Source: a phage. Taken from it: a stretch of 43,319 bases of DNA. The DNA is taken from the sequence record PX907400.1. One strand, given 5' to 3'. Below are positions 10,228-43,319 of this stretch, in pieces. Positions within the stretch are counted from its first letter, which is position 1, and every line of letters starts with the position of its first letter. The notes below the pieces were generated by a model that was not told the DNA's origin, searched no databases, and worked only from the letters and a program-made list of their open reading frames with translations. Position numbers and translations under genes: made by a program.

Positions 10228-10424
10228 TAAAGCCCCGCCTTAAAGCGGGGCGCTAGTCCTTATCATTTAAACATAGAAACGGCGTAATCTCAGTAAACCA
10301 GTTACTTTTTACACAAGCAATAGAGTAAGGCCCTTCCGAACGCGTCAGCGCAACTACACTCGGACTTAACGTCCGGCTCCGTTACCTGCCGCGCCGCGGT
10401 CGCTTGTTCATACTTCACAAGCTC
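10228..10424 (-). ncRNA. putative sRNA or structured leader (copy A of a duplicated element)
   Basis: Conserved promoter then ~110-nt block shared with 21655..21752; GCTTGT...ACAAGC hairpin and a covarying hairpin; ends at GCCCCGC...GCGGGGC stem. Confidence 0.3.
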
Positions 10425-10430
10425 AGGTGG

Positions 10431-10459
10431 AGCTTAGCACATTTTTGGTGAAAAGTCAA
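10431..10459 (-). promoter_or_regulatory. sigma70-like promoter (-35 TTGACT, 17 nt, extended -10 TGcTAAGCT)
   Basis: Identical -35 and -10 hexamers and spacing at 21759..21787; palindrome AACTATTCGAATAGTT overlaps the -35. Confidence 0.45.
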
Positions 10460-10521
10460 CTATTCGAATAGTTTATTCCAACATTTACAATTGAGTGGAA
10501 TAACTGGAATAATCACAGGCA

Positions 10522-19307: not shown

Positions 19308-19507
19308 TTCCCCTGTTTACCAAGTCGCTTAGGTGAGCAGATAGCGCGTACCTCTGAATCGTTGGGCTTGTCGCCCTGAAACAGGAAGTGCGCGTTCTCT
19401 GCGGTGCGTGCCGCTGACTGGCACGCCTCCATCGAATAAAACGTTTCTGATGCCGCTAGTTGCATCTGGCCCGCCGACAGTACCCAGATAAATAAGATGC
19501 TGGTCAT
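19304..19507 (-). CDS. hypothetical protein
   Basis: 67 aa ORF with overlapping start and stop. Confidence 0.4.
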   Translation of the reverse strand: MTSILFIWVLSAGQMQLAASETFYSMEACQSAARTAENAHFLFQGDKPNDSEVRAICSPKRLGKQGK

Positions 19508-19917
19508 TTCAGTTTAGCCCCGCAATCAAGACACTTTTTAGTAAAACCCGGCGCAAAGCCTTTGCGCAAACCGACGGTATTAGCGTGTTGGCAATCGCTC
19601 AATTCCGATTCTTGCTTACCGCATTTAGCGCAAATGAAGTAGTCCCCTTTTTCATCTAGCGCCCAATCATGCTCGCATTCCTGGGTATCCTCTTTACGGC
19701 AACCGGATTGCTCCTGTTTGCGGATAAGTTTGTACGCCTCCACGTCGCCCGTAGCTTTGACCAGCGCCATATGTAGCTCCTTAATCTGCGCCGACGCATC
19801 ACGTAACTGATTCTTAAGTGACTGCACCCCATGCGCCAGGTCTTCGCACCGGTTGTTATTTACCTGATGCCGTAGCTGGTCAATCAGGTGCTCGAATACT
19901 TCGTTTTTGTTACTCAT
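19504..19917 (-). CDS. zinc-finger protein, putative
   Basis: CAKCG...C...CLDCG cysteine pairs; N-terminus MSNKNE is identical to the next gene. Confidence 0.5.
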   Translation of the reverse strand: MSNKNEVFEHLIDQLRHQVNNNRCEDLAHGVQSLKNQLRDASAQIKELHMALVKATGDVEAYKLIRKQEQSGCRKEDTQECEHDWALDEKGDYFICAKCGKQESELSDCQHANTVGLRKGFAPGFTKKCLDCGAKLK

Positions 19918-20102
19918 GATACGTCTCCTACTAACACAACCTTCATGATACCGCGTTCACCTTTCTCACCAGCACGAAGCCACTCACGCGCAACTTTCTC
20001 ATCAGTGAACACGAATTTAGGTACGTGCTTCCCGTCAGAGGCGATAACCCACGCCGACCATACTGGGGTAACTTTAATCAAATGCTCGTTTTTGTTACTC
20101 AT
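19914..20102 (-). CDS. hypothetical protein
   Basis: 62 aa; GAGAGGGGA Shine-Dalgarno; flanked by 17-nt direct repeats. Confidence 0.45.
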   Translation of the reverse strand: MSNKNEHLIKVTPVWSAWVIASDGKHVPKFVFTDEKVAREWLRAGEKGERGIMKVVLVGDVS

Positions 20103-20133
20103 ATTCTGTCTCCCCTCTCGTTCGTGTAAATGA

Positions 20134-20162
20134 ATAGTAGCCTATTATATCTTAGTGTGCAA
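20134..20162 (-). promoter_or_regulatory. promoter (-35 TTGCAC, 17 nt, -10 TACTAT) with AATAG-N4-CTATT operator
   Basis: Same architecture as 982..1010 and 21460..21489. Confidence 0.4.
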
Positions 20163-20684: not shown

Positions 20685-20828
20685 TCACCCCTTATTCATC
20701 ACAGATTGCACGCCAGCTTTCCACGCCCGCCACGCGAGACGCGTCTTAACGTTCAGGTACTCTTTCTTTGAACCCTTGTTAACCGGCAGACCCTCGACGA
20801 CGGCCCACCGTTCGAATGCTTCTCTCAT
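20685..20828 (-). CDS. hypothetical small protein (47 aa)
   Basis: ATGA overlap with the upstream gene. Confidence 0.35.
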   Translation of the reverse strand: MREAFERWAVVEGLPVNKGSKKEYLNVKTRLAWRAWKAGVQSVMNKG

Positions 20829-20980
20829 ACCAGAGCCTCACATTCATCCCGATACACGAACAATAACGACCCTTTGTACTCAATCATAAAACCATAATGG
20901 TTGATGCTGAACGCCGGAAAAACATCACCTACCGAGATACCGAAATCTATAAGCCTGCGGTCAGTTATACGGATTCGCAT
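20825..20980 (-). CDS. hypothetical small protein (51 aa)
   Basis: TAATG overlap upstream and ATGA overlap downstream. Confidence 0.35.
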   Translation of the reverse strand: MRIRITDRRLIDFGISVGDVFPAFSINHYGFMIEYKGSLLFVYRDECEALV

Positions 20981-21234
20981 TAACGGCAACCTCCCTCAGA
21001 GTCGTCGGCACGAGCATCATGATTCGATGCCGTTGTGAATGAGGCAGAAACAGCATTGACCCTGCTAACGGTTAAAGTTTCTCTTACATCGTCATTTAAA
21101 TCCCATTCATCACCGTCTTCGTCTAAAACATATCGACGGCCGTCGGAATATACTCCGGACGAATATCTGTTACCTTTAACAAACCAATCCTGCACATCCT
21201 GGCTGGATTCAATACAAATTAGTTCTTCCATCAC
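20980..21234 (-). CDS. hypothetical protein
   Basis: 84 aa acidic ORF. Confidence 0.45.
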   Translation of the reverse strand: MMEELICIESSQDVQDWFVKGNRYSSGVYSDGRRYVLDEDGDEWDLNDDVRETLTVSRVNAVSASFTTASNHDARADDSEGGCR

Positions 21235-21425
21235 GTGTTATCCCCTTTGAATTTAAAATTGTTGCCGATGAGTGTTAAATTATCGCGTAAGGCGAAACCA
21301 GGTTTCTTTCTTACCAGACCCCATACGTCGACCAGATTATCCTCGTCATACTCGTTCTCGTCCTGCAACACTAATACATATTGTTCTCCGCGTTTAGTTT
21401 TCACCAACTGACCTTTCTTAAACAT
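21231..21425 (-). CDS. hypothetical protein
   Basis: ATG 21425 with GAGGAG Shine-Dalgarno (track gives GTG at 21434); first gene after the promoter at 21460..21489. Confidence 0.45.
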   Translation of the reverse strand: MFKKGQLVKTKRGEQYVLVLQDENEYDEDNLVDVWGLVRKKPGFALRDNLTLIGNNFKFKGDNT

Positions 21426-21459
21426 AACCCTCACTCCTCTGTCTCGTTTCGATAAGTGA

Positions 21460-21544: not shown

Positions 21545-21752
21545 CGAAACGAACGTGGTGCCGAAGGCACCAAGAGTGAGTGAGTGAGCTTGCGGTTCTA
21601 ACCTACGGCAAATCAGTAACTTAGATATTTAGGCGGGAATTACAATAGACTTTGGCCCTTCCGAATGCGCCAGCGAGCCTCACTCCACACGTCAAGACGT
21701 GCTCGTTTCGCCTGCCGCGCACCGCGGTCGCTTGTTCATACTTCACAAGCTC
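21545..21752 (-). ncRNA. putative sRNA or structured leader (copy B of the duplicated element)
   Basis: Conserved promoter then ~110-nt block shared with 10329..10424; ends near the GGTGCC-GAAG-GGCACC hairpin. Confidence 0.3.
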
Positions 21753-21758
21753 AGGACG

Positions 21759-21787
21759 AGCTTACCATATTTCTTAGTAAAAGTCAA
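21759..21787 (-). promoter_or_regulatory. sigma70-like promoter (-35 TTGACT, 17 nt, -10 TAAGCT)
   Basis: Identical hexamers and spacing to 10431..10459. Confidence 0.45.
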
Positions 21788-21834
21788 TACAAGTAGCATC
21801 TTTTGCGCCTTAGTAACTTTGTGTGGTGTTTTGG

Positions 21835-21863: not shown

Positions 21864-21892
21864 TCGGTATATCTTACATAGGAGAACGTGAA

Positions 21893-22063
21893 ATGACTAT
21901 CAATGAAGTTGCAGAATTAATCGGTGTCACCCGCCAGACAATTAATAACTGGATTAAGAGTGGAAAGTTTCCAGATTGCGGCGTTAAAGTAATGGGCCGC
22001 CGGATGCCGGGAACATTCGACCGTAATAAAGTTGAAGCGTGGATTAAGGAGAACGTGAAATGA
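21893..22063 (+). CDS. AlpA-like HTH transcriptional regulator
   Basis: MTINEVAELIGVTRQTINNWIKSGKFP HTH; GGAGAA Shine-Dalgarno (track ORF starts at TTG 21803). Confidence 0.6.
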   Translation: MTINEVAELIGVTRQTINNWIKSGKFPDCGVKVMGRRMPGTFDRNKVEAWIKENVK

Positions 22064-22293
22064 TTGGGCGTATGGGTTGTAGCTTCCGCGAAGACGGCAG
22101 CATTAAATATTATTTCAAGATTGCGTCAAATATAACCGACGATGTGTGTTATGTAGAACTTTTCCCTTATAACTTTTGTGGACCCACTAAAATAGTTAAA
22201 TTTTCTATAGAGGATATCCTTGATTGCAGTTTTTACCGTAGCGAAGGAGAGTGGGTTAATGCGGTGCGTAGACAAAAGAAACCCCAACGCTAG
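22060..22293 (+). CDS. hypothetical protein
   Basis: 77 aa, ATGA overlap with the upstream gene. Confidence 0.45.
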   Translation: MIGRMGCSFREDGSIKYYFKIASNITDDVCYVELFPYNFCGPTKIVKFSIEDILDCSFYRSEGEWVNAVRRQKKPQR

Positions 22294-24740: not shown

Positions 24741-24757
24741 AGGGGCGTTAAGCCCCT
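24741..24757. terminator. stem-loop/terminator between convergent genes
   Basis: AGGGGC-GTTAA-GCCCCT with T-rich flank on the minus strand. Confidence 0.4.
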
Positions 24758-24963
24758 TCACCGAACGCCAGCCACTTAGCGTCTACTTGCAGCACTTCCG
24801 CCAGTTTAAACAGCGTCGCCGGGCGGACGTCCTGAGTTACCCCAAGTGCCAGCTGGTTAATCGCGCCCTGGGAAACACCGGCCAGGACAGCCAGACGGCG
24901 TTGGGAAATGCCGAGTTCTTTACGGCGCTGTTCTACGCGGATGCCTAGTTCAGATGGTTGCAT
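24748..24963 (-). CDS. XRE-family HTH transcriptional regulator (Cro/CI-like)
   Basis: ISQRRLAVLAGVSQGAINQL HTH; divergent from the rightward operon; AAGGAG Shine-Dalgarno. Confidence 0.65.
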   Translation of the reverse strand: MQPSELGIRVEQRRKELGISQRRLAVLAGVSQGAINQLALGVTQDVRPATLFKLAEVLQVDAKWLAFGEGA

Positions 24964-24983
24964 GTCAATTACTCCTTAGTCAG

Positions 24984-25012
24984 TTGATATGTGAATAGTA
25001 CCATATTAATTA
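24984..25012 (+). promoter_or_regulatory. promoter/operator-like element (TTGATA + GTGAATAGTACCATATTA)
   Basis: Degenerate copy of the operator in the divergent region; direction uncertain. Confidence 0.3.
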
Positions 25013-25056: not shown

Positions 25057-25087
25057 TAACCCATACCAAACGAGAGGAGAGAAACAA

Positions 25088-25606
25088 ATGTTAGACCAAT
25101 TCTTAAAATTACTGGAACGTTTCGTAGTTGCGCATGAACTGATTGCCGCTAACAGCGAGAAACCACAAAACGGCAAATCAGTAGGTGAATTAACCGTTGA
25201 TGTTGCGGTAACTGGGGTAGAGACAGTTAAAAAAGAACTGGCTAAAGCACTTGAAGAAGTAGAGAAGGCGAAAGAAATCCCGGTTGAAGGTGAAGACATC
25301 GTCGACACTAAACCAGCAGAAGAAGAGAAGCCGAAACGCAAGCCGCGTAAATCTAAAGTAGAGGAACCGACGCCAGAACCGGAAGAGAAGGAAGAAGTAG
25401 ATTACCAGTCTCTGCGTGACCAGATTCAGGCTATCGACGATGCAATTAATGAAGGTCCGAGCGACGCCGCGTGCGATGATTCCGATGAACTGCTGGAAGA
25501 GTTCACCGGTAAGAAGATGAAGATTGCCGCGATTAAAGACGAAGACCTTGCCGAATACCTGGAACGCCTGACGGCAATCAAGAACAAGTATTTCGAAGAA
25601 GAATAA
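25088..25606 (+). CDS. acidic early protein of unknown function
   Basis: 172 aa rich in E/D/K; first gene downstream of the promoter at 25028. Confidence 0.5.
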   Translation: MLDQFLKLLERFVVAHELIAANSEKPQNGKSVGELTVDVAVTGVETVKKELAKALEEVEKAKEIPVEGEDIVDTKPAEEEKPKRKPRKSKVEEPTPEPEEKEEVDYQSLRDQIQAIDDAINEGPSDAACDDSDELLEEFTGKKMKIAAIKDEDLAEYLERLTAIKNKYFEEE

Positions 25607-26317: not shown

Positions 26318-26472
26318 CGAACCGTAAAGCGCGACTTCTATTTGTTAGACGTCACCAGCCTTTTCGAGTGAGTAACTCAACTTGGCTGGTCATCTTCAAC
26401 CGTAGTGGCGACACGTGCGCCTGCAAACGTAAAACGCGTAAAGCTAAATGGGGTGTGGGGTTAAGAGCATGA
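26314..26472 (+). CDS. hypothetical small basic protein (52 aa)
   Basis: GGGAGG Shine-Dalgarno; ATGA overlaps on both sides. Confidence 0.3.
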   Translation: MTNRKARLLFVRRHQPFRVSNSTWLVIFNRSGDTCACKRKTRKAKWGVGLRA

Positions 26473-27716
26473 AACTAAAAGAACGCGGCGGCAATAACGA
26501 TGTGCACGCCTTACTGTCGCCGTCTGGAGCTAAAAAGTGGTTAACCTGCCCCGCATCACTGGCCTGTGAAAAAGATATTCCTAACACGTCAGGTAAAGCG
26601 GCGGTATTAGGCACAGCTATGCACACCATAGCTGAGATGCACCTTAACCAGTACATCAAAGGCACTGCGCTGCCGTTAGCGCGTGAAGTTGGCGCGTATG
26701 TACTGGATGAAGGAAAAGGCCAGATTAAGGCGCTAATCAGCCCAATGAAAGGCTCGGTACTGATTACCGCCGACATGATTGAACAGGTGCGCAAGTACAC
26801 CGACTACTGCAAAGCGATTATCGACGTTGCAACTTACGCAAAGCTGGAGATGCGGGTAAATCTTACTGAGGTGCTGCATCCGGGTTACGAAGGCGTTGAG
26901 ACATTCGGAACCGCCGACATTGTTGCCGTTCAGGAACTGGCGAACACCGACGAGCACATGCTCATTATTGGCGACCTTAAAACTGGACGGCATCGTGTTG
27001 AAGCGAAAGAAAACAAGCAGCTTATGCTTTACGCTCTCGGTGTTTATCGCCGACTCAAGAGACGTTATAACATCACAGTAGTGCGCCTGGTCATCTTCCA
27101 GCCGTACGCGGGGGGTGCGTCAGAGTGGGACATCTCGGTCGAAGGTCTGGAACTGTTCGCTAAGTTCGCACAGAAACGGGCACTGTTAGCGCTTGATGCT
27201 TATTTCCGTGGAAAGAAGAACCTGAAAGCGTCGGACTTTAAACCGTCGGTCGATGGTTGCCAGTGGTGCCGGTTCTCTGAACAGTGTGCCGCGCGTACAA
27301 AGACGGTTAATTCTGTACTGGCGGAAGAACTTGAAGACGACTTTGTGCTGGAACTGACGACGGAGCAACTCGTAGTTGAGTATGAGAAGTTGCCGCTGTT
27401 GCGCCAGCACATCGACAAGGTTGAGAAAGCGATGTCCGCCGCATTGCATTCCGGTAAGAAAGTGCCAGGGTACAAACTGGTAGAAGGCCGCCCGGGTAAT
27501 CGTGCGTGGAAAGATGCCGATGCGATTGAAGTGTCACACGGCGACATTCTCAAAAAAGAGGTATTGATGTCCCCTACGGAGGCAGCAAAAGTTCTTTCTG
27601 CGGATGAGATGGCAGCGCTTGAGCCGTTTATTACCCGTAAGCCAGGCGCACCATGTGTCGCAACGGCAGGCGACAAACGTCCTGAGTGGAATCAGGTTAG
27701 TGAAGAAGATTTATAA
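26448..27716 (+). CDS. PD-(D/E)XK nuclease with Cas4-like Cys cluster (DUF2800-like)
   Basis: N-terminal CPASLAC, C-terminal CQWCRFSEQC, GDLKTG and QLMLYALGVY motifs; alternative start at 26469. Confidence 0.6.
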   Translation: MGCGVKSMKLKERGGNNDVHALLSPSGAKKWLTCPASLACEKDIPNTSGKAAVLGTAMHTIAEMHLNQYIKGTALPLAREVGAYVLDEGKGQIKALISPMKGSVLITADMIEQVRKYTDYCKAIIDVATYAKLEMRVNLTEVLHPGYEGVETFGTADIVAVQELANTDEHMLIIGDLKTGRHRVEAKENKQLMLYALGVYRRLKRRYNITVVRLVIFQPYAGGASEWDISVEGLELFAKFAQKRALLALDAYFRGKKNLKASDFKPSVDGCQWCRFSEQCAARTKTVNSVLAEELEDDFVLELTTEQLVVEYEKLPLLRQHIDKVEKAMSAALHSGKKVPGYKLVEGRPGNRAWKDADAIEVSHGDILKKEVLMSPTEAAKVLSADEMAALEPFITRKPGAPCVATAGDKRPEWNQVSEEDL

Positions 27717-27805: not shown

Positions 27806-28432
27806 ATGGGTATTAAACTGAATCTGCGTAAAGTAAACACTGCATGGGTTAACGTATTCGAACGCGAAAAAGACCGTGAAAACGATGATGGCTCAATCAC
27901 TAAAGGCCAGTACAGCGCGACTATCATCCTGCCGTCTGACCACGCACAAATCGACGCGCTCTACGACACCGTTTACGCTGTGGTTGAAGAAGCGTTGGGC
28001 GCAGCTGCCGCTGAGAAGTGGATGAAGTCAAACTACGGCGAAGGTAAGCACATGGATAAATGTGCGATTAAAGACATTGCCGAGCGCGACAATCCGTTTG
28101 AAGACTTCCCGGAAGGCTTCTACTTCAAGGCGAAGGCACAGAAACAGCCACTGATTGTAACCTCTAAAAAAGGCGAGACTCAGGTAGAACAGGACTTCAA
28201 TGTAGACGGCGAACAGATTGAAGGTGAACAGGTTTACAGCGGCTGCGTCGCTAACGTAAGCGTTGAAATCTGGTTCAGTCAGAAATATAAAGTCCTCGGC
28301 GTTAACCTGCTGGCGATTAAATACATTGGCGAAGGCAAAGCGTTTGGCGGTTCTAAAGTAGCCGCAAGCGTCAACGACCTGGAAGACGACGAAGAAGATG
28401 AAGCACCGCGCCGCGAACGTCGTCGCCGCTAA
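27806..28432 (+). CDS. ssDNA-binding protein (DUF2815-like), putative
   Basis: Acidic C-terminal tail DLEDDEEDEAP; sits between the nuclease and polymerase genes. Confidence 0.5.
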   Translation: MGIKLNLRKVNTAWVNVFEREKDRENDDGSITKGQYSATIILPSDHAQIDALYDTVYAVVEEALGAAAAEKWMKSNYGEGKHMDKCAIKDIAERDNPFEDFPEGFYFKAKAQKQPLIVTSKKGETQVEQDFNVDGEQIEGEQVYSGCVANVSVEIWFSQKYKVLGVNLLAIKYIGEGKAFGGSKVAASVNDLEDDEEDEAPRRERRRR

Positions 28433-40645: not shown

Positions 40646-41142
40646 TGCATCGGGTCCCAAATTCGTGGAAACGTTGATTGTGCAGTTCCGTAGGCTTTAA
40701 GGAAACACCCCAGCCCGTCACCATAGCAACCGTACAAATCTGGCAGATTGTTAATCAGGCACTGGTTCTCAAGGTCCTGGAACGGCGATTTCTCGGCGGT
40801 TGCCGTGAAGGTGATTGTCCAGTTAATCCCGTCTTCGGTGGACTCGGCGATAGTGGACGTAATGGTTACCTGATAATCTTCGATGCCCATGCCGAAGTCG
40901 TGCGCCATCCAGAAACTTGACGCACCGCCGTCTACTTTTTCGAGGAACGACAGAAACGCCTGTCGCCCCATTGCGGATGTAATCAGGGTTACGCTAACAG
41001 GGAACACGTCGTAATACGTGTCACGGCCCTGACGCACCCCGCCACCGGCTAAATCTACACTCCAGACGTTGTTACGTCTGGTCATTGAGTAGCCTTTCGA
41101 TACAATTGGCTTAAGGCTACGTGGGAAATATAAGTCGCTCAT
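40642..41142 (-). CDS. minor tail protein
   Basis: 166 aa immediately after the tape measure gene. Confidence 0.45.
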   Translation of the reverse strand: MSDLYFPRSLKPIVSKGYSMTRRNNVWSVDLAGGGVRQGRDTYYDVFPVSVTLITSAMGRQAFLSFLEKVDGGASSFWMAHDFGMGIEDYQVTITSTIAESTEDGINWTITFTATAEKSPFQDLENQCLINNLPDLYGCYGDGLGCFLKAYGTAQSTFPRIWDPMQ

Positions 41143-43319
41143 TATTTAAACCCCGGCGCATTTCTTGTGGCTTTGCGGGCCTTGCTAATCTTGCTGTTGC
41201 TGTTCTGCAAAGAGGCAGCCACCTGCTCCTCGATGATGATTCGCAAACGGCCTTCATCATCTTGCTCAGTGGATACGTTGCCGATTTGAGAACTCGTGTT
41301 GTTTACGATAGTAACATTAGACGGGCCGGAAGAAGACCCGTTTTGCCCCATAATTTCTTTCATCTGCTGTGCTGTGCGAACACGAGATGCGCCAGCCGGC
41401 ATAATAACTTCTGGTTTACCGCGTTCTGCGATGGTGGAAGCCTGCCCTGCGGATAACTGTCCGCCCTGTTCACGCGCGGACCGGATAGCGGAAACCTGCG
41501 CCATACCTGCACCAACGGCAGCGGCAGCGGCTACAGGGGCCAGGAACGGGCCAACTACAGGGATAGCTGCCGTTGACTTGTACGCCTCAATAGCTGCGGT
41601 GTACGTGGCGATAGTGGCCTGTACGATAGCGAATGCCTTGTACGCGCCAGAAGCCTCACCCAACGCAGACCCGATGTTTGAGGCCATGTTACCAAAGGCC
41701 GTTGCCGTTGCATCGGCACGTTTGGTTGCGTATTGCTCGTTGATGGCGTTAAGAGCGGCCTGATACTGCTTCTCGCTAATCAAACCCTGCTCGCGGTACT
41801 TATCCGCTACCGCCAGTTTCTGCTGTTCCTGGATGTCGAGAAGCTCAAGCTCAGTAGCGTTCTGACCCATAATCTGAGCCATGAAGTCGTCGCCTTTCTG
41901 CTGCTTTTCCTGGGCTTCTTTCTGGCGTTTATCCAGTTCATCTTGTCGTTTTTGCCCGGCTTCGAGGACGATAGCTGTTTTAGCCTGTTCGTATTCTTTC
42001 AGCGACAGCGCGCCCTGGCTGTAGAACTCTTTTGCCTTAGCCAGTTTCTGCTGTTCCTGCGCGTCGATAGCCTTTAACTCATCGTTGTTCTGGCGAGCCA
42101 AAGTGTCGAGGTAATCCTGCGCCTGATTCCGCAATTGTTCTGCTTTCTTGGCGGCGGCTTTTGCTGCTTTATCGTCGGTGTTTCCTGCCCCGCCAGTTCC
42201 GCCCTTTTTATTAACAAGACTGGCTAAGTCAATTTCTTGCTTCTTGCGCTCGTCGTACTGCTTGCGCTGTTCCTCAATTTCTTTCTTACGCTGCTTAGAC
42301 CTGTTGGTAATGGCCTGTGATTCTGCCTCTGCGCGTTTTATGCTAGCGGCGTACGCGGCGTCGGCCTCTGCGGTCAGGTTTTTAAATGTTAGCGCCGCCG
42401 TTTTGCTCGGGTCAAACACGTCGGCAAGGGTCTGCCCTAACGCTACAGCGTAATCGTCGATGCGCTGGAACCACGCAATAACCTCGTGAAATGTCTGCTG
42501 GATGTCCGGCAACCACTCACGGATGGCATCCGGTATAGTCCCCAGCGAGTCAGACATATCAACGGATTTGTCCTCGGTATCGAATGCCAGGTCATTCAGG
42601 GCGTCAGAAATAAACTTGAACGATTCATTGAACAGTGTCACCCAATCCTGGAGCGTGGCGGCTATCTCATTAGACGCGATGGCGTCGGTAAGCGCCGTGA
42701 TAGCGTCTTCCGCTGTGGCCGCTTGCTCACCTACGGCGTCGCCAAAACCAGACTGCGCCACCGCAAGAACAAGACCGTCGAAGGAGTCGGCGAGGCTCGA
42801 TAACTGGCCGTCTAGCGTCTTAGAGCGCGTCTCCATCGCCCCGGCAAAATCGGTGTTGCCGATATTCAGGAGGTATTTCTGAATCTCTTCGGAGTTCTTC
42901 TTAACCGTGGTCGTTACGCCGCGGAACGTGAACGAAACTGTATCTGCCTGTTGCGACGACTTGATGCCGAACTCTTTTAAGCGCTCAAATTCAAATGTAC
43001 TGGCGTCGGCAACTGCCTCAATCATCTGATTAAGGTCTTTACCCATAGCCGCCGCGGTGTTGCCGTAGGAGATTAACGCCTCTTTGCTGGGGTTCAGACC
43101 GAGCGCAACGAGCTTGGTAAACCCCTCTACCGCCTGATTGAGACCGTACGGGGTCTCTTTTGCAAACTGTTGCAGGACGCTGAAAGCCTTAGCCGCGTTC
43201 TCGGCGCTCCCGGTCATCGTGATGAGGCCGGAGTTCAGCTTATCGAAGTTTCGCTGGGAATCCACCAGCGCGCTGAACACCTGCTTAGCGGTTTCCAGAC
43301 TGACAACGGCGGCGGCGGC
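41142..43319 (-). CDS. tail tape measure protein, C-terminal ~725 codons (5' end lies at 1..99)
   Basis: Long Ala/Gln/Lys-rich helical protein upstream of the minor tail genes; frame stays open past the track start 43280 to the window end. Confidence 0.7.
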   Translation of the reverse strand, partial: AAAAVVSLETAKQVFSALVDSQRNFDKLNSGLITMTGSAENAAKAFSVLQQFAKETPYGLNQAVEGFTKLVALGLNPSKEALISYGNTAAAMGKDLNQMIEAVADASTFEFERLKEFGIKSSQQADTVSFTFRGVTTTVKKNSEEIQKYLLNIGNTDFAGAMETRSKTLDGQLSSLADSFDGLVLAVAQSGFGDAVGEQAATAEDAITALTDAIASNEIAATLQDWVTLFNESFKFISDALNDLAFDTEDKSVDMSDSLGTIPDAIREWLPDIQQTFHEVIAWFQRIDDYAVALGQTLADVFDPSKTAALTFKNLTAEADAAYAASIKRAEAESQAITNRSKQRKKEIEEQRKQYDERKKQEIDLASLVNKKGGTGGAGNTDDKAAKAAAKKAEQLRNQAQDYLDTLARQNNDELKAIDAQEQQKLAKAKEFYSQGALSLKEYEQAKTAIVLEAGQKRQDELDKRQKEAQEKQQKGDDFMAQIMGQNATELELLDIQEQQKLAVADKYREQGLISEKQYQAALNAINEQYATKRADATATAFGNMASNIGSALGEASGAYKAFAIVQATIATYTAAIEAYKSTAAIPVVGPFLAPVAAAAAVGAGMAQVSAIRSAREQGGQLSAGQASTIAERGKPEVIMPAGASRVRTAQQMKEIMGQNGSSSGPSNVTIVNNTSSQIGNVSTEQDDEGRLRIIIEEQVAASLQNSNSKISKARKATRNAPGFK

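What the first reader, a model, noticed from the sequence alone, without database searches (positions are those of the whole stretch)
19901..20102. Short direct repeats spanning start codons flank small early genes
The 17-nt sequence TCGTTTTTGTTACTCAT (minus strand: ATGAGTAACAAAAACGA, start codon plus 5 codons) occurs at 19901..19917 and 20086..20102, so genes 19504..19917 and 19914..20102 share the N-terminus MSNKNE and gene 19914..20102 is bracketed by the repeat. Likewise the 16-nt GGAGAACGTGAAATGA occurs at 21881..21896 and 22048..22063, bracketing the AlpA-like gene. Such repeats could drive gain or loss of small genes by recombination.
Basis: seen in the sequence. Interest (0 to 1): 0.4.

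Follow-up and report, generated by a model that had tools for sequence, protein, structure and literature searches.

The report
Start-codon repeats flank swappable phage genes
Two exact 17-base repeats in this E. coli phage (genus Kagunavirus) are duplicated ribosome-site/start-codon junctions at the edges of small early genes; related phages show one bracketed gene is an optional cassette that comes, goes and changes neighbours at that junction, which is an ordinary but clean case of phage gene shuffling.

Summary
Both repeats are real, exact and non-random; the second is 17 nt, not 16. The window is a Kagunavirus (Guernseyvirinae).

Repeat 1 (ATGAGTAACAAAAACGA) is the start of a conserved early gene (MSNKNEVFE…), copied onto the 5' end of an optional 62-aa gene.
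- Between a conserved leftward promoter/leader and this start, relatives carry nothing (4 genomes, a single 17-mer, exactly the predicted deletion product) or at least 18 different inserts.
- The 62-aa gene occurs behind three different upstream neighbours, always joined through this start.
- In other phages a homologue sits in a second promoter slot, bracketed by a 15-nt leader repeat. The window holds the empty allele of that slot.
- The junction carries a start plus stops in both other frames, so upstream cassettes terminate inside it.

Repeat 2 behaves differently.
- The downstream copy is a near-universal junction followed by three unrelated alternative genes.
- The upstream copy is specific to one clade.
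- The HTH gene is never missing.

So the gain/loss idea is supported for repeat 1 and not for repeat 2. Many cassettes lack flanking repeats, so repeats are products and occasional substrates of short-homology recombination, not a requirement. This is a new member of a known kind (lambdoid boundary sequences, T4 PeSLs). Interest is modest.

The parts
20086..20102 (-). Promoter-proximal copy of the 17-mer ATGAGTAACAAAAACGA: start codon plus codons 2-6 of the 62-aa cassette gene
   Evidence: Exact match. In empty-slot relatives the same leader runs straight into this sequence followed by the VFEYL gene body.
19901..19917 (-). Distal copy of the 17-mer: start plus codons 2-6 of the conserved 137-aa MSNKNEVFE… gene. 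Its ATGA also supplies the TGA stop of the 62-aa gene.
   Evidence: 11-mers from this start region are found in about 18-25 of 39 relatives.
19914..20102 (-). 62-aa optional cassette gene (no Pfam or PHROG family)
   Evidence: ORF. Homologues are 60-63 aa at 65-97% identity. Interior 11-mers are present in only 3-8 of 39 relatives. There is no family hit.
19504..19917 (-). 137-aa 'VFEYL' gene (PHROG 6094, function unknown). Its first ~18 codons are conserved across the genus while the rest is mosaic (109-230 aa in relatives).
20103..20162 (-). Conserved leftward sigma-70-like promoter (TTGCAC-17 nt-TACTAT, with the palindrome AATAG-N4-CTATT) and 5' leader ACACGAACGAGAGGGGAGACAGAAT. This forms the left border of the cassette slot.
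   Evidence: Read from the sequence. The same motif precedes the slot in all relatives. 11-mers from it are found in 21-32 of 39 relatives. Promoter function is inferred, not tested.
21880..21896 (+). Upstream copy of AGGAGAACGTGAAATGA: Shine-Dalgarno, spacer and start of the HTH gene, lying in the 5' leader of the rightward early transcript
   Evidence: Exact only in the window, Esher4, L011 and L016. It is 14-15 of 17 in L012-L015 and absent from three other leader types.
22047..22063 (+). Downstream copy: the last codons of the HTH gene (…KENVK*), which also serve as Shine-Dalgarno and ATGA start/stop overlap for the next gene
   Evidence: Conserved in nearly all of the 32 close relatives and followed by three unrelated genes, or by none.
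21893..22063 (+). 56-aa HTH_17 / excisionase-type early regulator, a core gene present in every relative examined
22060..22293 (+). 77-aa gene (MIGR…, PHROG 27179), one of three alternative genes docked at the HTH 3' junction
   Evidence: Interior 11-mers are found in about 3 of 39 relatives.
25068..25090 (+). Empty allele of a second cassette slot: a single copy of the leader AAACGAGAGGAGAGA-AACAA-ATG in front of the 172-aa gene 25088..25606. In L063-L065 a homologue of the 62-aa gene is inserted here between two copies of AAACGAGAGGAGAGA.
27806..28432 (+). Gp2.5-like ssDNA-binding/annealing protein, a candidate catalyst of short-homology recombination
   Evidence: PHROG 112, E 1.2e-41; Pfam PF10991. 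Annotated the same way in Bas71. A role in recombination at these sites is inferred.
26448..27716 (+). PD-(D/E)XK exonuclease (DUF2800), the candidate partner of the annealing protein
   Evidence: PHROG 69, E 4.7e-122; Pfam PF10926 and PF12705. The role is inferred.

Best explanation
**What the repeats are.** They are duplicated translation-initiation junctions (Shine-Dalgarno, start codon and first codons) at the edges of small promoterless gene cassettes in the early operons of a Kagunavirus.

**The slot (shown).** A conserved promoter/leader and the conserved 5' end of the next core gene delimit a 'slot'. In different phages this slot is empty or holds different translationally coupled cassettes.

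**The 62-aa gene (shown and inferred).** Its first 17 nt are a copy of the start of the resident gene it sits in front of, and its last codons and stop are read from that gene's ribosome-binding site and ATGA. The duplication is therefore the footprint of an insertion made by recombination inside the initiation region.

**Inferred mechanism.** The event was either an unequal crossover between co-infecting phages or Campbell-type integration of a small circle carrying one copy. It was probably catalysed by the phage's own Gp2.5-like annealing protein and exonuclease, using 8-17 nt of homology.

**Consequences (inferred).** Once present, the two copies allow three things: precise loss of the cassette, its transfer behind any other cassette that precedes the same start, and, through the shared leader AAACGAGAGGAGAGA, its transfer to a second promoter slot.

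**Why the junction is kept (shown in sequence, function inferred).** ATGAGTAA holds a start in frame 1, TGA in frame 2 and TAA in frame 3. Whatever is inserted upstream therefore terminates inside it and stays translationally coupled to the next gene.

**The HTH repeat.** Its downstream copy is the same kind of junction, with alternative genes docked after it. Its upstream copy is a clade-specific relic in the 5' leader, and no gene loss is seen there.
For: **Statistics.** Both repeats are exact and unexpected: 5 repeats of at least 17 nt against 0.035 expected.

**The slot.** The distance from the conserved promoter to the VFEYL gene body is 46-49 nt in L014, L036, fEg-Eco19 and CR01 (empty slot, one 17-mer) and 159-491 nt in the others, with at least 18 different contents. 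A BLAST search with the predicted deletion product gives one-piece matches to CR01 and fEg-Eco19. Most other records match in two pieces separated by inserts of about 118 nt and upwards.

**Mobility of the 62-aa gene.**
- It is rare: 18 phage records (RefSeq duplicates included) and none of the close IMG/VR loci.
- It lies behind the leader in the window, fFiEco02/03, K1G and Esher4; behind the MKDYSEV cassette in NTEC3, 590B, phiEc4 and L060-62; and behind the MFLECK cassette in SZH-1. The 185-nt spacing is constant throughout.
- The variant of the left copy follows the upstream neighbour. ATGA[AG]YACTAAAAACGA follows MKDYSEV whether the next gene is the 62-aa gene or VFEYL, because its first 11 nt encode the MKDYSEV C-terminus and stop. 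This confines the joint to the 6-8 nt AAAAACGA.

**Second slot.** In L063-65 a 78%-identical homologue is inserted after the rightward promoter, between two copies of AAACGAGAGGAGAGA (215 nt start to start). The window has the uninterrupted single copy at 25068-25090. A second cassette family (…FGAPQEVCTKHKFVLS…) also occurs in both slots.

**Other flanking duplications.** The two-gene cassette of L003, L005 and L035 is flanked by a duplicated CGAGAGGAGAGRCAGAAKATG.

**Termination inside the junction.** 31 of 36 distinct occupied slots end their last cassette within the first 11 nt of the VFEYL ORF: 11 at ATGA, 16 at +6..+8 and 4 at +9..+11.

**Regional pattern.** 11-mers from gene junctions are shared by 25-36 of 39 relatives, while those from gene interiors are shared by 0-9.

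**HTH 3' junction.** The identical GATTAAGGAGAACGTGAAATGA is followed by three mutually unrelated genes.

**Enzymes.** The window encodes a Gp2.5-like annealing protein and a PD-(D/E)XK exonuclease.

**Precedent.** PeSL-flanked ORFans in RB49, replaced by a single PeSL in phi1, and the mini-circle model (PMC2839356). Short conserved flanking sequences in lambdoid phages and annealase-driven mosaicism (PMC2327257).
Against: - No recombination event was observed directly. All evidence is comparative, and the direction (gain or loss) cannot be read from an empty slot.
- The long exact repeat is not a conserved property. Only the window and fFiEco02/03 have 17-18 nt. The other carriers share 3-8 consecutive bases.
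- Many cassettes have no flanking repeat beyond 4-6 nt. Examples are MGWYGSW, MYKYLTV and MKDYSEV in the left slot, the 75-aa gene in the right slot, and the 50-aa gene inserted before the HTH gene in L039. Exchange can therefore proceed through the longer conserved flanks (the ~60-nt promoter/leader and the ~55-nt VFEYL 5' end) or by illegitimate joining followed by selection for intact genes.
- The right-hand joint of the L063 insertion is not explained by simple homology.
- For the HTH repeat there is no presence/absence polymorphism at all.
- The significance test on flanking-repeat length uses related, non-independent genomes.
Confidence: 0.7

Rival explanations
1. Passive scar only. A single old illegitimate insertion 17 nt into the VFEYL gene created the duplication. 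All later reshuffling used the longer conserved flanks (leader and VFEYL 5' end) or fresh illegitimate events filtered by selection. Under this view the 17-mer itself has never served as a crossover site and does not destabilise the gene.
For: Most cassettes lack flanking repeats. The repeat is degenerate in most carriers of the 62-aa gene. N-termini of the 62-aa family vary (MFNSNE, MVNSNE, MGNSSE, MNTKNE), as expected if they have drifted since an old event.
Against: Placing non-homologous upstream cassettes (MKDYSEV, MFLECK) in front of the 62-aa gene requires a joint between nt 11 and nt 17 of the start, at the same breakpoint each time. The left-copy variant tracks the upstream neighbour. 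The same gene family is bracketed by a different local initiation-region repeat in a second slot.
Confidence: 0.2
2. Convergent selection on translation. Both genes independently acquired the same strong initiation region (SD, spacing, ATG and A-rich early codons) because it maximises expression. Under this view the identity has nothing to do with recombination.
For: The repeats consist of SD, start and A-rich codons. Many early leaders in these phages resemble each other (GAGAGGAGAGACAGAAG-ATG).
Against: Identity of 17 of 17 at synonymous and spacer positions is far beyond functional constraint. No other gene start in the window carries either motif, even with 2 mismatches. Homologues of the 62-aa gene function with quite different first codons. 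Convergence also does not explain empty slots with a single copy.
Confidence: 0.04
3. A shared cis-regulatory operator. The duplicated initiation region would be bound by one translational repressor or small RNA (RegA-like control) that co-regulates the two adjacent genes.
For: The repeats cover the ribosome-binding window of two neighbouring early genes in each case.
Against: There are only two copies of each motif in 43 kb. There is no Rfam match. The repeat is absent or degenerate in most relatives that carry the same genes. No candidate regulator was identified.
Confidence: 0.04
4. Tandem gene duplication followed by divergence. Under this view the 62-aa and 137-aa genes are paralogues that retain only a common N-terminus.
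For: BLASTP aligns MSNKN---EHLI with MSNKNEVFEHLI (E 0.01). The shared 5' homology may therefore extend to about codon 10-13, with a 9-nt indel.
Against: There is no similarity beyond residue ~12. The lengths are 62 versus 109-230 aa. The 62-aa family is well conserved internally and unrelated to VFEYL proteins. It also occurs in a second slot next to a different gene. At most the first ~40 nt were duplicated, not the whole gene.
Confidence: 0.02
5. Target-site duplication left by a transposable element or homing-endonuclease cassette.
For: Direct repeats flank an inserted segment. NTEC3 carries a homing endonuclease gene two genes away.
Against: The 185-nt insert encodes only a 62-aa protein with no family match. 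There are no terminal inverted repeats. A 17-nt duplication is atypical for transposases (own knowledge). The window has no endonuclease gene here, since the genes overlap at 19504-19507 and 19914-19917.
Confidence: 0.01

Closest known systems
PeSL (promoter-early stem-loop) cassettes of T4-type phages (Arbiol et al. 2010, PMC2839356; Comeau et al. 2014, PMC4122927)
   Same: Short repeated regulatory sequences flank small ORFan genes in hyperplastic early regions. A close relative has a single copy of the repeat in place of repeat-ORF-repeat. Recombination between the flanking copies is proposed to delete the gene and release a circle that can re-insert at another copy. This matches the filled and empty alleles seen here at two slots.
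   Different: PeSLs are composite promoter-plus-terminator units with conservation spread over about 100 bp, so they carry their own transcription signals. Here the repeated unit is 15-28 nt of ribosome-binding site, start codon and first codons, the cassettes are promoterless and translationally coupled within an operon, and the duplicated sequence becomes part of the coding sequence of both genes. Mini-circles were shown physically for PeSLs and were not tested here.
Short conserved boundary sequences between modules of lambdoid phages (modular evolution; summarised in Martinsohn et al. 2008, PMC2327257, which cites earlier work)
   Same: Short sequences conserved among related phages at gene borders, with unrelated DNA on one or both sides. 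Exchange is attributed to homologous recombination in these flanks and to phage annealases that tolerate short or diverged homology.
   Different: That work concerns temperate phages with Red-beta/Rad52-type recombinases. This is a virulent siphovirus with a Gp2.5-like annealing protein. Here the junction is also duplicated within one genome on both sides of a cassette, and it has a start-plus-two-stops design.
Deletion between short direct repeats in T7 and T4 (classical genetics; own knowledge, not retrieved here)
   Same: Direct repeats of roughly 10-20 bp a few hundred bp apart are known substrates for spontaneous precise deletion during phage replication. T7 uses a gp2.5 protein of the family found here (gp2.5 role in recombination: PMC2553585 abstract).
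   Different: No rate is known for Kagunavirus. The evidence here is comparative, not experimental.
Integron gene-cassette arrays
   Same: Promoterless cassettes accumulate directly downstream of a resident promoter at a defined insertion point, and the same cassette family can occupy different arrays.
   Different: There is no integrase and no attC or attI structure. No recombinase gene is listed in the annotated genome of the relative Bas71, and there are no inverted repeats at the borders. The resemblance is one of layout only.

Membership tests
Short conserved junction ('boundary') sequences mediating modular exchange in phages | A short sequence at a gene border is conserved among relatives while adjacent gene interiors are not | tested here: met
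   11-mer sharing is 25-36 of 39 relatives at junctions against 0-9 of 39 in gene interiors. The HTH 3' junction is conserved in nearly all of the 32 close relatives.
Short conserved junction ('boundary') sequences mediating modular exchange in phages | Unrelated alternative genes adjoin the same junction in different genomes | tested here: met
   At least 18 slot contents occur upstream of the ATGAGTAAC… start. Three mutually unrelated genes follow GATTAAGGAGAACGTGAAATGA.
Short conserved junction ('boundary') sequences mediating modular exchange in phages | Recombination actually occurs within the junction | not testable with these tools
   This is inferred only from breakpoint mapping, which places the joint within nt 11-17 of the start. 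Crosses or deep sequencing are needed.
PeSL-type mobile regulatory cassettes | The repeat unit is a composite sigma-70 early promoter plus stem-loop terminator of about 100 bp | tested here: not met
   The repeat units are 15-28 nt of SD, start and codons. No promoter or terminator match lies at the distal copies. Only the left border of each slot is a promoter.
PeSL-type mobile regulatory cassettes | repeat-ORFan-repeat in one phage corresponds to a single repeat in a close relative | tested here: met
   The window (filled) compares with L014, L036, CR01 and fEg-Eco19 (single 17-mer). L063 (filled) compares with the window (single AAACGAGAGGAGAGA).
PeSL-type mobile regulatory cassettes | Excised mini-circles carrying one repeat plus the ORF | not testable with these tools
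   Requires outward-facing PCR or sequencing of phage DNA.
Transposon or IS target-site duplication | The element encodes a transposase and has terminal inverted repeats | tested here: not met
   There is no Pfam or PHROG hit for the 62-aa protein and there are no terminal inverted repeats.
Integron cassette system | A tyrosine-recombinase integrase with attI/attC sites | tested here: not met
   No integrase is annotated in the complete genome of the relative Bas71. No attC-like inverted repeats flank the cassettes. The whole window was not scanned protein by protein.
   The best Pfam hit is HTH_17, PF12728 (E 2.4e-10), followed by YfeC-like and MerR-type HTH families. The hit list names no AlpA family. 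It is a related excisionase/MerR-type HTH.

The most novel reading that the evidence does not exclude
Kagunaviruses may run a dedicated, integrase-free cassette-docking system.
- Each early promoter would be followed by a standard initiation junction (leader AAACGAGAGGAGAGA…ATG, or ATGAGTAA with a start and stops in both other frames) that acts as a universal acceptor.
- Promoterless ORFs would circulate between slots and between phages as small circles or fragments carrying one junction copy.
- They would be integrated and excised at high frequency by the Gp2.5-like annealase and its exonuclease.
- This would be a translational-level analogue of PeSLs and integrons, and would explain the whole 'conserved junction, variable interior' pattern of the early region.
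Probability: 0.15. Interest if true: 0.6.

Novelty: new member of a known kind. Interest (0 to 1): 0.3.

Why it matters
**What it offers.** This is a compact, well-delimited natural example of how small accessory genes of virulent phages are gained, lost and moved.
- There are two promoter-proximal slots.
- Filled and empty alleles differ by exactly one cassette plus one copy of a 15-17-nt initiation sequence.
- One cassette family is seen in four different contexts.

**Why it could be useful.**
- Such early ORFans are where anti-defence and host-takeover genes are usually sought, so knowing the slots and junctions tells annotators where to look for variable cargo in the roughly one hundred sequenced E. 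coli Kagunaviruses.
- It also gives engineers natural insertion sites, with built-in translational coupling, for therapeutic phages of this genus.

**Limits.** It does not reveal a new principle. Short-homology modular shuffling is established for lambdoid and T4-type phages.

Tried and rejected
- **Chance.** Rejected by simulated-sequence statistics.
- **Known RNA element or tRNA at the repeats.** None found.
- **Transposon-like structure.** No inverted repeats and no transposase-like protein.
- **Whole-gene paralogy of the two MSNKNE genes.** Only the first ~12 residues align.
- **HTH deletion variants.** A BLAST search with the predicted deletion junction found no one-piece match in 42 records, so no loss of this gene is seen.
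- **A near-identical genome for dating the event.** None exists in the phage collection; the best is Esher4 at 92% identity over 90% of 25 kb.
- **The third close repeat (41812/42040).** It lies inside the tape-measure gene and is unrelated.
- **Are flanking repeats universal?** They are not. Many cassettes share only 4-6 nt, which is why the claim is limited to 'product and occasional substrate'.
- **Literature on this in Guernseyvirinae.** Searches found only genome reports. The classical T7 papers on direct-repeat deletion are not in the library.
- **Not attempted.** Structure prediction of the 62-aa protein, because its function does not bear on the repeat question.
Full report
**1. Observation**

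The minus-strand 17-mer ATGAGTAACAAAAACGA is present exactly twice, at 19901-19917 and 20086-20102, with no further copy at up to 2 mismatches. It supplies the start and first five codons of two adjacent, overlapping ORFs: 20102..19914 (62 aa) and 19917..19504 (137 aa). Ungapped similarity extends to 28 nt at 86% and includes the Shine-Dalgarno GGAGAC.

The second repeat is exact and one base longer than reported: AGGAGAACGTGAAATGA at 21880-21896 and 22047-22063. It brackets the 56-aa HTH gene 21893..22063.

The window has five exact direct repeats of at least 17 nt, where 0.035 are expected. Only three repeats of at least 13 nt have copies within 300 nt of each other, and the third lies inside the tape-measure gene.

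**2. What the window is**

The region matches Escherichia phages of the genus Kagunavirus (Guernseyvirinae). The closest genome, MirsaeidiM_Esher4, is about 92% identical over 90% of the first 25 kb, so there is no near-identical relative.

The repeats lie in the divergent early control region, between the lysis and small-gene side and the replication genes (annotation of the relatives).

**3. Anatomy of the left slot**

In every relative, a conserved leftward sigma-70-like promoter (TTGCAC-17 nt-TACTAT, overlapping the palindrome AATAG-N4-CTATT) and a leader …ACACAAACGAGAGGAGAGACAGAAG precede this operon. Further downstream lies a gene whose first ~18 codons (MSNKNEVFEYLIDQLRQQ) are conserved, while the rest of the gene is mosaic (109-230 aa). 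After it comes a conserved 67-aa gene.

The stretch between leader and VFEYL gene is a variable slot:
- The distance from promoter to VFEYL gene body is 46-49 nt in four genomes: IMG/VR loci L014 and L036, and phages fEg-Eco19 and CR01. In these the leader is fused directly to a single ATGAGTAACAAAAACGAAGTATTC.
- The distance is 159-491 nt in the others, with at least 18 distinct contents of one or two small genes.

A BLAST search with the predicted product of recombination between the window's two 17-mers gave one-piece matches to CR01 and fEg-Eco19. Most other records matched in two pieces separated by inserts of about 118, 129, 159, 300 and 400 nt and more.

**4. The 62-aa gene as a mobile cassette**

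The gene is rare. It occurs in 18 phage records, counting RefSeq duplicates, and in none of the close IMG/VR loci. It is well conserved: 60-63 aa, 65-97% identity, and a constant 185-nt spacing to the next start.

It occurs in three contexts in the left slot:
- directly after the leader: window, fFiEco02/03, K1G, Esher4, L066, L067;
- after the 42-aa MKDYSEV cassette: NTEC3, 590B, phiEc4, L060-62;
- after the 72-aa MFLECK cassette: SZH-1.

The sequence of the left copy follows the upstream neighbour, not the gene that follows it:
- Leader and MFLECK contexts carry ATGAGTAAC…, as they do when the VFEYL gene follows directly.
- The MKDYSEV context carries ATGA[AG]YACTAAAAACGA in both cases. Its first 11 nt encode the C-terminus and stop codon of MKDYSEV.
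- The joint between MKDYSEV and the body of the 62-aa gene must therefore lie between nt 11 and nt 17 of the start, within AAAAACGA. That is a crossover at 6-8 nt of homology, with the same breakpoint (…ACGA|GCATTTG) in every context.

Only the window and fFiEco02/03 have a 17-18-nt exact repeat. Here the left copy equals the start found in empty-slot phages. This is what is expected if the cassette entered an empty slot with the left crossover inside the recipient's VFEYL start. That step is an inference.

BLASTP suggests the shared 5' homology may reach codon ~10-13 with a 9-nt indel (MSNKN---EHLI; E 0.01). There is no similarity beyond that, so the two genes are not paralogues.

**5. A second slot, with the window as the empty allele**

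A 78%-identical homologue (P0006, 63 aa) is encoded in three metagenomic contigs (L063-65) at a different place. It lies after the rightward promoter that follows the helicase-primase gene and a divergent HTH_31 gene.

There it is bracketed by two copies of AAACGAGAGGAGAGA, each 5 nt before an ATG, 215 nt apart. The window has the uninterrupted site, …CCAAACGAGAGGAGAGAAACAAATG, at 25068-25090 in front of gene 25088..25606.

The left joint in L063 carries the left-slot form of the leader (…GAGAGACAGAGATG). This suggests the cassette moved with its own initiation region, through the 15 nt that the two leaders share.

Most relatives have this second slot empty. Others hold a 75-aa gene of the …FGAPQEVCTKHKFVLS… family, a 37-aa gene, or another insert. 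The 75-aa family also occurs in the left slot (L002, K1ind1), so at least two cassette families use both slots.

**6. Why the junction is conserved**

ATGAGTAA contains a start codon in frame 1, TGA in frame 2 and TAA in frame 3. The variants ATGAATACTAA and ATGAATAA keep this property.

In 31 of 36 distinct occupied slots the last cassette terminates within the first 11 nt of the VFEYL ORF: 11 at ATGA, 16 at +6..+8 and 4 at +9..+11. The junction thus accepts an upstream ORF in either alternative frame and keeps it coupled to the next gene. The function is inferred from the sequence.

The 62-aa ORF itself borrows its first codons from this junction, and it borrows its last four codons and stop from the VFEYL ribosome-binding site (…GTAGGAGACGTATCATGA).

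**7. Generality and limits**

A profile of 11-mer sharing with 39 relatives shows the same pattern across the whole early region. Junctions (C-terminal codons, ribosome-binding site and N-terminal codons) are shared by 25-36 genomes, while gene interiors are shared by 0-9.

Some cassettes are flanked by duplicated initiation sequences. One example is CGAGAGGAGAGRCAGAAKATG around the two-gene cassette of L003, L005 and L035.

Many are not. Slot-gene starts share a median run of 6 nt with the VFEYL start, against 4 nt for downstream genes. Values above 8 nt occur in only four cassette types. That test uses related genomes, so its P value is not a probability.

The 50-aa gene inserted between leader and HTH gene in L039, and the 75-aa gene in the right slot, have essentially no flanking repeat. 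Flanking repeats are therefore footprints, and sometimes substrates, of recombination in initiation regions. They are not a prerequisite for exchange.

**8. The HTH repeat**

The downstream copy (…WIKENVK* = GATTAAGGAGAACGTGAAATGA) is conserved in nearly all of the 32 close IMG/VR relatives (L011-L042). It is followed by three mutually unrelated genes (MIGR 77 aa, MKGV 96 aa, MTEF 77 aa) or by none. It is a genuine mosaic boundary at an ATGA overlap.

The upstream copy exists only in one leader type:
- exact in the window, Esher4, L011 and L016;
- 14-15 of 17 in L012-L015;
- absent from three other leader types.

The HTH gene is present in every relative. The predicted deletion junction was never found in one piece.

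The upstream copy is best seen as a relic of a past exchange that brought the junction sequence into the 5' leader. I could not reconstruct that event.

**9. Mechanism**

The following points are shown:
- filled and empty alleles differ by one cassette plus one repeat copy, at two slots;
- there are context swaps with a fixed breakpoint;
- the phage encodes a Gp2.5-like ssDNA-annealing protein (27806-28432) and a PD-(D/E)XK exonuclease (26448-27716), as annotated in Bas71.

The following points are inferred:
- these proteins catalyse annealing at 8-17 nt of homology during replication or co-infection;
- this produces unequal crossovers or Campbell-type insertion and excision of one-repeat circles, as proposed for PeSLs (PMC2839356) and for annealase-driven mosaicism (PMC2327257).

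**10. Alternatives**

- Convergent optimisation of initiation regions cannot give 17 of 17 identity at free positions, and it cannot explain the empty alleles.
- A shared translational operator is unsupported. There are two copies only, the repeat is absent in most relatives, and there is no Rfam match.
- Transposon or homing origins lack any supporting feature in the window.
- The serious rival is the 'scar only' view, under which the repeat has never been used again. The fixed breakpoint in three contexts, and the second slot, argue against it, but only experiments can settle the point.

**11. Comparison and verdict**

This works like the short boundary sequences of lambdoid phages and like T4-type PeSLs. 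It meets the first two defining features of the boundary-sequence class; the third, recombination within the junction itself, could not be tested here. It is not a PeSL, because the repeat unit has no promoter-terminator composite.

I found no description of it for Guernseyvirinae in the searchable literature. It is a new member of a known kind.

It is a tidy and useful example for annotating or engineering Kagunaviruses, but it would not surprise a specialist. Interest is 0.3.

Noticed in passing
window 10318-10465 and 21643-21790: A non-coding direct repeat of about 150 nt, with a 34-nt exact core (CCGCGGTCGCTTGTTCATACTTCACAAGCTCAGG) and about 80% identity overall. The second copy lies in the divergent early control region and is also present in relatives. 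There is no Rfam match, and single-sequence folds are not significant (z -0.5 to -1.7). However, a hairpin at the same position has a different sequence in the two copies.
   Followed up: partly
window +982, -21489, -20162; and 24984, 25028, 27724, 31430 (+): Two families of sigma-70-like early promoters share a palindrome, AATAG-N4-CTATT, overlapping the -10 region: TTGCACAC…ATAATAGGnTACTATTC and TTGACAcGTGAATAGTTCGCTATTATAGTT. This looks like a common operator for one regulator.
   Followed up: no
window 20685-21434 (minus strand genes): Genes of the other leftward operon have conserved N- and C-terminal codons (MFKKGQLV…NFKFKGAK, MEEL…DSEGGCR, MRIRITD…ECEVL, MREAFERW…) but almost unrelated interiors in different phages. 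The mosaic joints therefore lie inside the genes, a few codons from each end.
   Followed up: partly
L007 and L050 (K1H, K1G), homologues of window gene 20825..20980: The MRIRITD gene carries a tandem triplication of an 8-codon unit (RITDRRLI ×3) in K1G, K1H and Esher4-like phages, against a single unit in the window.
   Followed up: no
proteins P0010, P0011, P0003 (metagenomic relatives of the 62-aa gene): Natural fusion or frameshift variants. P0010 joins the first 21 residues of the 62-aa protein to the C-terminus of the 67-aa MTSILF protein, which means a deletion removed the whole VFEYL gene. P0003 and P0011 are read-through or frameshift forms. This shows that illegitimate deletions also occur in this region.
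   Followed up: no
L052 4150-4623 (phage NTEC3): A homing-endonuclease gene is inserted between the VFEYL gene and the 67-aa gene in NTEC3. In the window these two genes overlap (19504-19507). Endonuclease-induced breaks could add to local recombination in some relatives.
   Followed up: no
window about 24750-24965 (minus strand): A Cro/CI-type HTH gene (HTH_31 in the L063 annotation) is transcribed divergently from the rightward promoter pair at 24984 and 25028, in a phage otherwise annotated as virulent.
   Followed up: no
window 41812-41864 and 42040-42092: A 20-nt exact (53 nt at 74%) direct repeat inside the 712-aa tape-measure gene 41142..43280 (-), reflecting an internal coiled-coil repeat (…DIQEQQKLA… / …DAQEQQKLA…). 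It is unrelated to the finding.
   Followed up: yes
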